NCBI RefSeq assembly: GCF_006345805.1
Contig: NW_021833175.1
Span: 1-34,775, forward strand
Length of the DNA stretch: 34,775 nt
Direction of reading: 5' to 3'
Source: Octopus sinensis
Lineage: Eukaryota
Made by a program: the position numbers and the translations under genes. Below are positions 17,751 to 19,124 of the stretch, in pieces. The notes under the pieces are model-generated. The model searched no databases. It saw nothing but the letters and a program-made list of their open reading frames with translations, and was not told the DNA's origin. How positions within the stretch are numbered: the first letter of the stretch is position 1; each line of letters starts with the position of its first letter.

Positions 17751-18237
17751 ACCTTATTGAGTTTTCTGTTTCAAGACATCTTCAAAATGCATTGTCTTAC
17801 GATACTTCAGACAACCATTATGAATATATACAAATATATGCATACATATATATATACACGCGCATACACACACACACACACACACACACATACATACACT
17901 CTGTCTGTCTGTTTATGCGCGCGCGCGTGTTAATGTGTGTGACGTTGTTATCTACCTATATTCATCTTTCCATACGTATGTCTACTTATCCGTTTTAGTT
18001 TTCATCTTATATTTACTACTAAGAATAAGAAGTTCTGCTATATCTACTTACCTTCCCCTTCCTTAATCCTTCTCTCTCTCTCTCTCACTCTCTCTCTCTC
18101 TTTCTTTCTTTCTTTCTCACTCTCCCTCTCTCTGAATAACTATATTTTTTACCATACACCCGTTCATATATACATTTTCCCATACACGCATGTACTCGCT
18201 GACATGTATGCATGTATTTAAGTACGCAGGAACGTGT

Positions 18238-18462
18238 GAGGGCACATGGTCTAGTGGTTATGAGATCGCGGTTTCAATTCCTGTACCAGGTGGTGGGTTG
18301 AGTTTTTTGCGCAGAACACTTCATCTCACGTTGCTCTGCGATAACTTCGACACCTGACGTGTGGTTACACCGTGCACCTGCTCAGACAACGTTGATTTCA
18401 TGGAGGTGGTGAGTTACTAAACAGCACAACCATTTGATCACACTAAACAAATAATTTCTGCA
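18238..18462 (+). mobile_element. Degenerate CORE-like SINE with a third type of 3' tail
   Basis: TGGTCTAGTGGTTA...GGTTTCAATTCC...ACACTTCATCTCACGTTGCTC, homologous to the 625 and 6091 heads. Confidence 0.65.
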
Positions 18463-18485: not shown

Positions 18486-18734
18486 CAGTTCTATATTTAA
18501 GAGACGAGGAATTATGTGCATTATTTACATTTGACGGATATTTGTGCTCATCTTGTTTGTTGTTAACACAACGTTTCGCCTGATAAACACTCCAGCCTTC
18601 ATCGGGTGCCTTGGGGAAATTTCGAACCTAAGTTCTCATTCCTATGGTATTTTTCGATGTTGTTGTTGTTGTTATTATTATTATTATTCAGGTCACTGCC
18701 TGGAATCGAACTCGGAATCTTAAATATAGAACTG
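18486..18734 (-). mobile_element. Small element with 17-bp TIRs, Pol III B-box and hammerhead-like motif
   Basis: Perfect inverted repeat CAGTTCTATATTTAAGA (18486-18502) / TCTTAAATATAGAACTG (18718-18734); minus-strand GTTCGATTCC at 18702-18711. Confidence 0.75.
18566..18609 (-). ncRNA. Degenerate minimal type I hammerhead ribozyme-like motif
   Basis: Minus strand GCAC-CCGATGA-AGGCTG[GAGTGTTTAT]CAGGC-GAAA-CG-TT-GTGT: one change in the CUGAUGA core and one stem II mismatch. Confidence 0.55.
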
Positions 18735-18847: not shown

Positions 18848-18881
18848 CGTGCGTGAGCTGTGTGTATTGTATGTGCGTTTG

Positions 18882-19089
18882 CCTCCACGCCACCACTGTT
18901 GGCAACTGGAGTTGGTTTGTTTACGTCGCTATAATATAGCAGTTGGGCAATTGACACCGACAGAATAAGTACCAAGTATGAAAAAAAAAAAAAAAAGAGA
19001 GGAAATACTGGAGCCAATTTGTTCGACTAAACTTTTCAACGAGTTGTTCCAGCGTGACCGCAGTCCAATGACTGAAATAAGTAAAAGAT
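18882..19089 (+). mobile_element. 3' half of the SINE family seen at 3632-4035
   Basis: GTTTACGTC...AGAATAAGTACCA...TTGTTCGACTAAA...CCGCAGTCCAATGACTGAAATAAGTAAAAGA. Confidence 0.7.
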
Positions 19090-19124
19090 GTACTTTCAGT
19101 TTATCTGAGAACTTCGCTAAATCG

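What the first reader, a model, noticed from the sequence alone, without database searches (positions are those of the whole stretch)
18486..18734. Chimeric element combining DNA-transposon-like TIRs, a Pol III B-box and a hammerhead motif
Seen: perfect 17-bp terminal inverted repeats beginning CAG, flanked by TG (left) and TA (right). Inside, on the minus strand, are a tRNA-type B-box GTTCGATTCC, an (AAT/AAC)n spacer and a minimal hammerhead-like motif. Established: CAG/TA ends typify Tc1/mariner MITEs, B-boxes typify SINEs, and minimal hammerheads with a short palindromic stem III typify Penelope-like pseudo-LTRs and act as dimers. Inference: either a Pol III, ribozyme-processed parasite of Penelope machinery or a MITE that captured one. 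The A-box is missing and the right TIR joins at TCTT, suggesting collapse of a longer palindromic parent.
Basis: partly seen in the sequence, partly recalled or inferred. Interest (0 to 1): 0.72.

Follow-up and report, generated by a model that had tools for sequence, protein, structure and literature searches.

The report
Penelope retrotransposon end with tRNA promoter

Summary
The parts are there, but the element is not a MITE chimera. The 17-bp 'TIR' is the 3' end of a Penelope/Poseidon-type pseudo-LTR. It occurs 6,366 times in the genome, unpaired in 100 of 100 listed places. The junction that makes the second arm occurs once, here. The 'TA' is the element's own next sequence. Full-length relatives read ORF (RT, GIY-YIG-type end), stop, tRNA-like A and B boxes, (AAT)n, then ATG, hammerhead and tail. 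The tRNA head therefore belongs to the coding element. Copies show Penelope hallmarks: inverted 5' arms lacking a 25-nt tail and 8-15-bp target duplications. Of 84 arms reaching the A box, 52 stop within 20 nt upstream of it, against about 5 expected. This points to an RNA start there, likely by Pol III. The 2.7-kb sense strand has no TTTT (modest significance). This copy is dead: A box lost, hammerhead core mutated. No transcript evidence was obtained. The scan noted this family before on other DNA.

The parts
18486..18721 (-). 5'-truncated copy of the terminal repeat (tRNA-like head remnant, spacer, pseudo-LTR, tail) of a Penelope/Poseidon-type retrotransposon
   Evidence: 91% identical to the family majority over this span; same sequence ends full-length ORF-bearing copies L142 and L159
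18718..18737 (+). Short inverted arm: the family's 3' end (17 nt, plus 3 nt that match the element's continuation or the flanking microsatellite).
   Evidence: 100% to family tail; junction unique in the genome
18718..18721 (.). 4-nt microhomology shared by the inverted arm and the direct arm
   Evidence: both parent sequences contain these four bases at the joint
18690..18721 (-). 3' half of the tRNA-derived head; the first 35 nt from the A box onward are lost in this copy
   Evidence: alignment to family majority; full head scores 60 against the genome's tRNAs, reached by 0 of 150 shuffles that keep both boxes
18702..18711 (-). Pol III B box; in full copies it starts 45 nt after the A box, the tRNA spacing (spacing rule recalled)
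   Evidence: sequence; family head printed
18659..18688 (-). (AAT)n(AAC)n spacer, length variable between copies
18486..18658 (-). Pseudo-LTR core, which is also the start of the element's ORF
   Evidence: in L130, L138, L139 and L143 this sequence continues in frame into an ORF; 61% identity over 147 aa to the 806-aa RT protein P0014
18637..18639 (-). Likely ORF start ATG; in this copy a stop follows three codons later
18565..18610 (-). Minimal type I hammerhead (5-bp stem I, 6-bp stem II, CG in place of stem III; predicted cut after 18570). Degraded here: core U4 reads C, one G-G mismatch in stem II
   Evidence: layout matches min-HHRs of PMC4209133
18486..18510 (-).
   Evidence: inverted arms start at family position 225-237 in 37 of 53, direct arms at 261; same two ends seen as loose read ends

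Best explanation
The stretch is a dead, 5'-truncated, two-armed insertion of the terminal repeat of a Penelope/Poseidon-type retrotransposon whose repeat opens with a tRNA-derived A/B-box head, and the family's RNA likely starts at that head by RNA polymerase III. Shown: the unit is ORF, stop, 36 nt, A box, B box, (AAT)n, ATG, hammerhead, tail; most copies are two arms on opposite strands, one starting at the tail end and one 25 nt inside it, framed by an 8-15-bp duplication; most arms that reach the head stop just upstream of the A box. Inferred, by analogy with the anole element PAc: the element's protein nicks both DNA strands and starts reverse transcription inside the RNA at those two sites; cDNAs run off the RNA's 5' end at the head or break earlier and are joined head to head through short homologies. 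Any copy that keeps both boxes could then make a short RNA and act like a SINE, which would explain the excess of short copies. In this copy both arms began at the tail end and one is only 17-20 nt long, either made short or collapsed later at a 4-nt homology; that mimics a TIR. The hammerhead is a passenger of the pseudo-LTR, predicted inactive here.
For: Architecture: L142 and L159; P0014 aligns along residues 1-803 of L159 at 46-68%; RVT_1 hits; EN end aligns with the Pfam-positive GIY-YIG of L092 and has two cysteines inside the core but no linker zinc finger, the Penelope/Poseidon state in PMC8557442. Head linked to ORF end in 22 of 29 loci and to the pseudo-LTR in 38 of 40 head-picked loci. 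Two arms in 53 of 100; outer start 225-237 in 37 of 53; duplication of 8 nt or more in 30 of 53 against 1.3% in mismatched flanks. Strong stop: 52 of 84 arms end at -20..0 from the A box, 10 more at -40..-21, 22 go on, and only 5 of those 22 stop in the next 80 nt. Exact 19-mers: head 5,401, just upstream of head 965. No TTTT in the 2.7-kb sense majority or in L159 and L142; null 4.9 (P 0.006) and 2.7 by codon shuffling (P 0.036); two other Penelope-like ORFs here have 9 and 10.
Against: No transcript start, Pol III occupancy or cleavage was observed. A 12-nt palindrome lies at -14..-3 and blurs the exact ends; palindromes at pseudo-LTR 5' ends and inverted junctions are common in Penelope elements without tRNA heads (PMC3846280). 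The one dissected Penelope promoter resembles the TATA-less internal promoters of LINEs (PMC2377424). The TTTT test is modest, was one of several run types looked at, and GGGG is also absent (P 0.27). Rfam and ARAGORN do not call the head a tRNA, and its parent tRNA is unresolved. All 170 sampled copies are old (median 5-6% from the majority where measured) and no intact ORF was seen. The 100 tail-picked copies come from the first 45 Mb of one chromosome and include 5 near-duplicates (kept, removed).
Confidence: 0.7

Rival explanations
1. The head is a tRNA-derived SINE piece that became fixed in the element's 3' UTR. It drives only short SINE-like daughter RNAs (head plus pseudo-LTR), while the coding RNA is made by Pol II from an ordinary pseudo-LTR promoter. 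This differs from the best reading only in which polymerase makes the long RNA, and overlaps with it.
For: Head followed by an (AAT)n run looks like a SINE with a simple-repeat tail (sequence). Kojima proposes this origin for tRNA-bearing LTRs of Helenus and expects autonomous partners to use Pol II (PMC10886601). Short copies outnumber ORF-linked ones about 5 to 1 by 19-mer count.
Against: No free SINE with this head and another body: 38 of 40 head-picked loci continue into the pseudo-LTR. The whole ORF lacks TTTT, which this reading does not need.
Confidence: 0.45
2. The head is a passive tRNA-like relic. The RNA starts there by Pol II, or the pile-up of ends is caused by the small palindrome upstream of the A box (self-priming or template switching), and Pol III plays no part.
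For: Palindrome at -14..-3; junction palindromes in rotifer Penelope elements; LINE-like internal promoter in fly Penelope.
Against: Both boxes match consensus at tRNA spacing while the stems are broken. Ends spread from -15 to +11, and some stop at -13 or -14 next to unrelated sequence (L053, L216, L233), as expected of a template end. A 4-5-bp hairpin is a weak block for an RT that crosses 2 kb (inference).
Confidence: 0.22
3. A Tc1/mariner-type MITE that captured a SINE-hammerhead piece and moves as DNA through its 17-bp TIRs.
For: Perfect 17-bp inverted repeat starting CAG, TA on one side.
Against: Junction unique in the genome; 0 of 100 copies have the second end; the 17-mer is coding sequence of the Penelope ORF start; TA is the element's own; left flank is TG.
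Confidence: 0.02
4. A non-LTR retrozyme or Schistosoma Sm-alpha-like unit: RNA is cut by paired hammerheads, circularised and reinserted.
For: Intact minimal hammerhead in the family majority; core complete in 46 of 99 arms, with the free core position varying most among non-CpG core sites (T 74, A 21). Some loci hold short head-to-tail pseudo-LTR repeats.
Against: Copies are dispersed and head-to-head, with ends at the tail sites and the head, not at the cut site. In PAc, ribozyme mutants still insert in vitro (PMC11167929).
Confidence: 0.06

Closest known systems
Penelope/Poseidon-clade Penelope-like elements, e.g. anole PAc (PMC11167929, parts 1-2 of 4 read; PMC8557442 and PMC3846280, passages)
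   Same: One ORF with RT and C-terminal GIY-YIG-type end; hammerhead overlapping the ORF start; pseudo-LTR; inverted 5' arm; optional tail at one end; target duplications of about 8-15 bp; heavy 5' truncation.
   Different: A tRNA-derived A/B-box head opens the repeat and marks where most copies begin; tail is 25 nt rather than 30-40; sense strand has no TTTT. Clade assignment rests on domain layout, not on a tree.
Minimal hammerheads of metazoan pseudo-LTRs (Cervera and de la Pena 2014, PMC4209133, parts 1-2 of 4 read)
   Same: Short stem I, long stem II with an extra base before it, palindromic CG in place of stem III; predicted to need a dimer.
   Different: No activity test here; this copy's core is mutated.
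tRNA-derived SINEs (SINE2) (PMC5786205, passages)
   Same: tRNA head with A and B boxes, body taken from the partner's RT-recognised end, no coding capacity in short copies, thousands of copies.
   Different: The partner is a Penelope element, the head is also part of the coding element, the 3' end is set by internal start sites and has no poly(A) or repeat tail, and copies are two-armed. The same paper mentions a tRNA-like sequence in the LINE RTE-1_DAn, so a tRNA piece inside a coding retroelement has a precedent.
TRIMp3: Cassandra, Helenus, Ajax (Kojima 2024, PMC10886601, abstract and passages)
   Same: Small-RNA-derived Pol III promoter built into a terminal repeat.
   Different: Those are non-autonomous LTR elements with PBS and PPT; here the repeat is a Penelope pseudo-LTR of a coding element.
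Schistosoma Sm-alpha/Sj-alpha SINE-like hammerhead repeats and animal non-LTR retrozymes (PMC6765202, passages; bioRxiv 10.64898/2026.07.22.740005, parts 1-3 of 5; PMC7229834, passages)
   Same: Pol III-type promoter followed by a hammerhead (Schistosoma); derivation from Penelope pseudo-LTRs (retrozymes).
   Different: Those are tandem arrays processed by the ribozyme; this family is dispersed, head-to-head, and its ends do not map to the cut site.
Tc1/mariner MITEs (features recalled)
   Same: Only the look of this one copy: CAG-initial inverted repeat and a TA.
   Different: No paired ends or TA duplication in the family.

Membership tests
EN+ Penelope-like elements | RT domain in a single ORF | tested here: met
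   RVT_1 on L155 fragment (E 6e-8) and on relative P0014; P0014 aligns along all of L159. Genomic copies are broken; no intact ORF seen.
EN+ Penelope-like elements | C-terminal GIY-YIG endonuclease with cysteine pair inside the core | tested here: met
   Pfam GIY-YIG did not hit L142 or L159 ends, but the region aligns column by column with the Pfam-positive GIY-YIG of L092 and atlas neighbours carry GIY-YIG/HTH_animal/RVT_1.
EN+ Penelope-like elements | Pseudo-LTR holding a hammerhead and the ORF start | tested here: met
EN+ Penelope-like elements | Inverted 5' arm and optional tail at one end | tested here: met
   53 of 100 two-armed; 37 of 53 start 24-36 nt inside the tail end
EN+ Penelope-like elements | Short target duplication | tested here: met
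   family: 30 of 53 two-armed copies, 8-15 nt, null 1.3%; this copy has none
Penelope/Poseidon clade | No linker zinc finger between RT and EN | tested here: met
   absent where L092 has one; criterion from PMC8557442
Penelope/Poseidon clade | RT phylogeny with named references | not testable with these tools
   no labelled reference set (Repbase) on hand
tRNA-derived SINE (SINE2) | tRNA-derived head with A and B boxes | tested here: met
   family: both boxes at 45-nt spacing; tRNA likeness beyond the boxes, 0 of 150 shuffles. This copy lacks the A box. Rfam and ARAGORN negative.
tRNA-derived SINE (SINE2) | Copies begin at the head | tested here: met
   52 of 84 arms reaching the A box end within 20 nt upstream
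tRNA-derived SINE (SINE2) | Head not part of the autonomous partner; separate non-autonomous family | tested here: not met
   22 of 29 ORF-end loci run into the head
tRNA-derived SINE (SINE2) | Transcription by Pol III | not testable with these tools
   the three raw RNA runs laid show both directions equally and no start at the head; uninformative
Tc1/mariner MITE | Paired TIRs shared by the family | tested here: not met
Tc1/mariner MITE | TA target duplication | tested here: not met
   TG on the left; TA is the element's own continuation
Non-LTR retrozyme | Head-to-tail units each with a hammerhead | tested here: not met
   single hammerhead in the window; family mostly dispersed and head-to-head; some tandem derivatives exist elsewhere
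Minimal type I hammerhead | Intact core and stems | tested here: inconclusive
   met in the family majority and 46 of 99 arms; not met in this copy
Minimal type I hammerhead | Self-cleavage as a dimer | not testable with these tools
   needs an in vitro assay

The most novel reading that the evidence does not exclude
An autonomous, protein-coding Penelope retrotransposon transcribed end to end by RNA polymerase III from a captured tRNA promoter, with its 2.7-kb sense strand purged of TTTT terminators, whose terminal repeat doubles as a built-in SINE copied by the element's own enzyme.
Probability: 0.3. Interest if true: 0.8.

Novelty: new variant of a known kind. Interest (0 to 1): 0.5.

Why it matters
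SINEs are described as Pol III-transcribed parasites of LINEs, and coding retrotransposons as Pol II transcripts. Here the Pol III-type promoter appears to sit in the coding element's own repeat, in a class (Penelope) for which my searches found no tRNA-headed member. If Pol III makes the long RNA, an uncapped 2.7-kb transcript must be translated, which is unusual and testable. The family also gives in-genome support for the two internal start sites found in vitro for PAc. Practically, single copies like this one can be mislabelled as MITEs or SINEs by annotation pipelines. The copy in this window is itself only a dead fragment.

Tried and rejected
Rfam on the window stretch and on 17 fuller copies, ARAGORN on the window and 38 loci: no tRNA or hammerhead call. 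Pfam GIY-YIG search of the genome led to other Penelope-like families; 0 of 30 short and 0 of 20 long loci shared this pseudo-LTR. The partner was found instead through sequence continuing past the tail in L011 and L033. Parent tRNA: 42 distinct genomic tRNAs of 7 isotypes compared; Arg(TCT), Cys, Ala and Thr score within 7 points, so unresolved. Sequencing runs: no RNA holder on record listed. Three raw RNA runs of a related organism laid on L159: both directions equal, no start or end at the head or the cut site; uninformative on transcription. Metagenome scan: 7 distant relatives, none with the A/B pattern, too distant or fragmentary to test whether close relatives have the head. No target duplication for this copy, and its flanks could not be joined into one interrupted repeat. 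PDB search gave only weak RT hits. Fold of the whole element (z -4.9) is driven by the 17-bp repeat and was not used. Literature: nine searches listed no paper on a tRNA-headed Penelope element; most hits were seen as listings only. The library lacks most subscription journals, Repbase and Dfam were not searchable, bioRxiv supplements were closed, and the one supplement searched (PMC13282606) is a summary table. The family may already sit in a repeat library under another label.

Full report
Observation. The window holds a perfect 17-bp inverted repeat at 18486-18502 and 18718-18734, with TG on the left and TA on the right. On the minus strand follow a B box (18702-18711), an (AAT)5(AAC)5 spacer and a minimal hammerhead at 18565-18610. 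Rfam and ARAGORN call neither motif. The window lies in a 2.72-Gb animal genome. The host is probably an octopus; that is recalled from the repeat landscape and comes from no call.

The ends are not TIRs. The 17-mer occurs 6,366 times; among the first 100 places listed, the nearest outward-facing pair is 16 kb apart (read by eye). The 21-mer spanning the joint that creates the second arm occurs once, in this window. In 100 copies picked only by their 3' end (the first 100 hits), none has an inverted tail within 900 nt upstream. TA follows the 3' end in 64 of 100 and equals the element's own next bases. The MITE reading fails.

What the family is. In L011 and L033 the sequence runs on past the 3' end into an open frame. 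Searching with that stretch gave loci where hammerhead and tail are the first codons of an ORF; L143's frame is 61% identical over 147 aa to P0014, an 806-aa RT protein from another source. L142 and L159 hold whole, decayed elements: inverted arm, ORF, stop, head, spacer, pseudo-LTR. P0014 aligns along residues 1-803 of L159 at 46-68%. The C-terminal domain missed Pfam GIY-YIG but aligns with the Pfam-positive domain of L092, keeps the cysteine pair inside the core and lacks the linker zinc finger, the Penelope/Poseidon state (PMC8557442, passages). The window copy is 91% identical to this family's terminal repeat.

Penelope hallmarks. Of the 100 copies, 53 have an adjacent inverted arm. In 37 of 53 it starts at family position 225-237, about 25 nt inside the 3' end at 261; none starts beyond 237; most of the other 16 are parses that stopped at the spacer. 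Duplications of 8-15 nt frame 30 of the 53 (33 of all 100), against 1.3% for mismatched flanks. Five of the 100 are near-duplicates, kept in that count and removed. This is the structure described for Penelope elements (PMC8557442, PMC3846280) and fits the two internal RT start sites and two-strand nicking shown in vitro for PAc (PMC11167929).

The tRNA head. Full copies carry an A box and a B box 45 nt apart, beginning 36 nt after the stop codon. The head scores 60 against the best of 42 genomic tRNAs; 0 of 150 shuffles that keep both boxes reach that. The parent tRNA is unresolved. The head belongs to the coding element: 22 of 29 loci picked by the ORF end run into it (the query's own locus left out), and 38 of 40 loci picked by the head run into the pseudo-LTR.

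Where copies begin. Pooling both samples, 84 arms reach the A box: 52 end within 20 nt upstream, 10 at 21-40 nt (some probably over-extended through a palindrome), and 22 go on, of which 5 stop in the next 80 nt. At that background rate about 5 of 84 would stop in the first 21 nt. Exact 19-mer counts agree: 5,401 in the head, 965 about 58 nt upstream. The simplest cause is an RNA whose 5' end lies just upstream of the A box, where Pol III starts on tRNA-type genes (established knowledge, recalled). Caveats: a 12-nt palindrome at -14..-3 blurs the ends, and palindromic junctions are known in Penelope elements without such heads.

Pol III for the whole unit? The 2.7-kb sense majority has no run of four T, nor do L159 and L142; shuffles give 4.9 (P 0.006), codon shuffles 2.7 (P 0.036); ORFs of two other Penelope-like families here have 9 and 10, and two shorter control frames have 2 each. 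GGGG is also absent (P 0.27). This is a lead, not proof. Three RNA runs were uninformative.

The hammerhead. The family majority has the full core, a 5-bp stem I, a 6-bp stem II with the extra base before it, and CG in place of stem III, as in PMC4209133. The core is complete in 46 of 99 arms. This copy has C for U4 and a G-G pair in stem II. Copy ends do not pile up at the predicted cut, and PAc inserts without ribozyme activity in vitro. I read it as a passenger.

This copy. The direct arm runs from the tail end to head position +35, so the A box is lost. The inverted arm is 17-20 nt and also starts at the tail end; the two join through four shared bases. Two-tailed insertions are rare (0 of 100; L009 from the similarity search is another, also without duplication). 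A short-born arm and a later collapse of a longer palindrome cannot be told apart here. It can neither be transcribed by Pol III from its own promoter nor code (stop at codon 4).

Comparison and novelty. It is a member of the EN+ Penelope-like elements on all features tested, and works like a SINE in its short copies, but fails SINE membership because the head is part of the coding element. Nearest analogies are tRNA-bearing LTRs of Helenus (PMC10886601), the Schistosoma Pol III hammerhead repeats (PMC6765202) and pseudo-LTR-derived retrozymes (bioRxiv 10.64898/2026.07.22.740005). Nine literature searches listed no tRNA-headed Penelope element; Repbase and Dfam could not be searched. Eight earlier notes of this scan describe the same family in this and another genome. 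I saw them after my own reading was written (notes), and they are not independent support.

Verdict. Observation partly confirmed, MITE refuted, Penelope terminal repeat established, Pol III start likely (0.7), Pol III for the whole coding unit open (0.3). New variant of a known kind; interest 0.5.

Noticed in passing
L092:1474-5174, L095:4839-8539: A second Penelope-like family, with linker zinc finger, has a 479-aa frame upstream of and overlapping the 781-aa RT/GIY-YIG frame; L092 has 1,440-bp direct repeats 99.7% identical, each with a hammerhead-like motif, so it may be young. Two ORFs would be unusual for this class (recalled).
   Followed up: partly
L115, L116, L120, L121, L123-L125, L133: Short head-to-tail repeats of the pseudo-LTR plus about 120 nt of ORF start, several rejoining at the same point, each unit with a hammerhead: retrozyme-like dimers derived from this family. 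Several lie on one contig and may be duplicates.
   Followed up: no
L009: Another head-to-head insertion with the tail on both arms and no target duplication.
   Followed up: partly
L059/L060 (G000:C1:10889625-10889748): Two copies lie tail to tail 87 bp apart.
   Followed up: no
family hammerhead, core position 7: T in 74 and A in 21 of 99 arms, the position free to vary in hammerheads (recalled); may mark a subfamily and weakly hints at constraint on the core in source elements.
   Followed up: partly
window 18230-18340 and 18850-19095: Remnants of two other abundant SINE-like repeats flank the element.
   Followed up: partly
window 33223-34183: Tandem array of a 52-bp unit, about 19 copies, 80% alike.
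   Followed up: no
window 23194-24760 (-), 27567-28600 (-), 31541-32011 (-): Broken reading frames that look like RTE- and CR1-type LINE reverse transcriptases (labels recalled, not tested).
   Followed up: no
window near 5188 (-) and 4836 (-): Two further loose matches to the hammerhead core pattern, not similar to this family.
   Followed up: no
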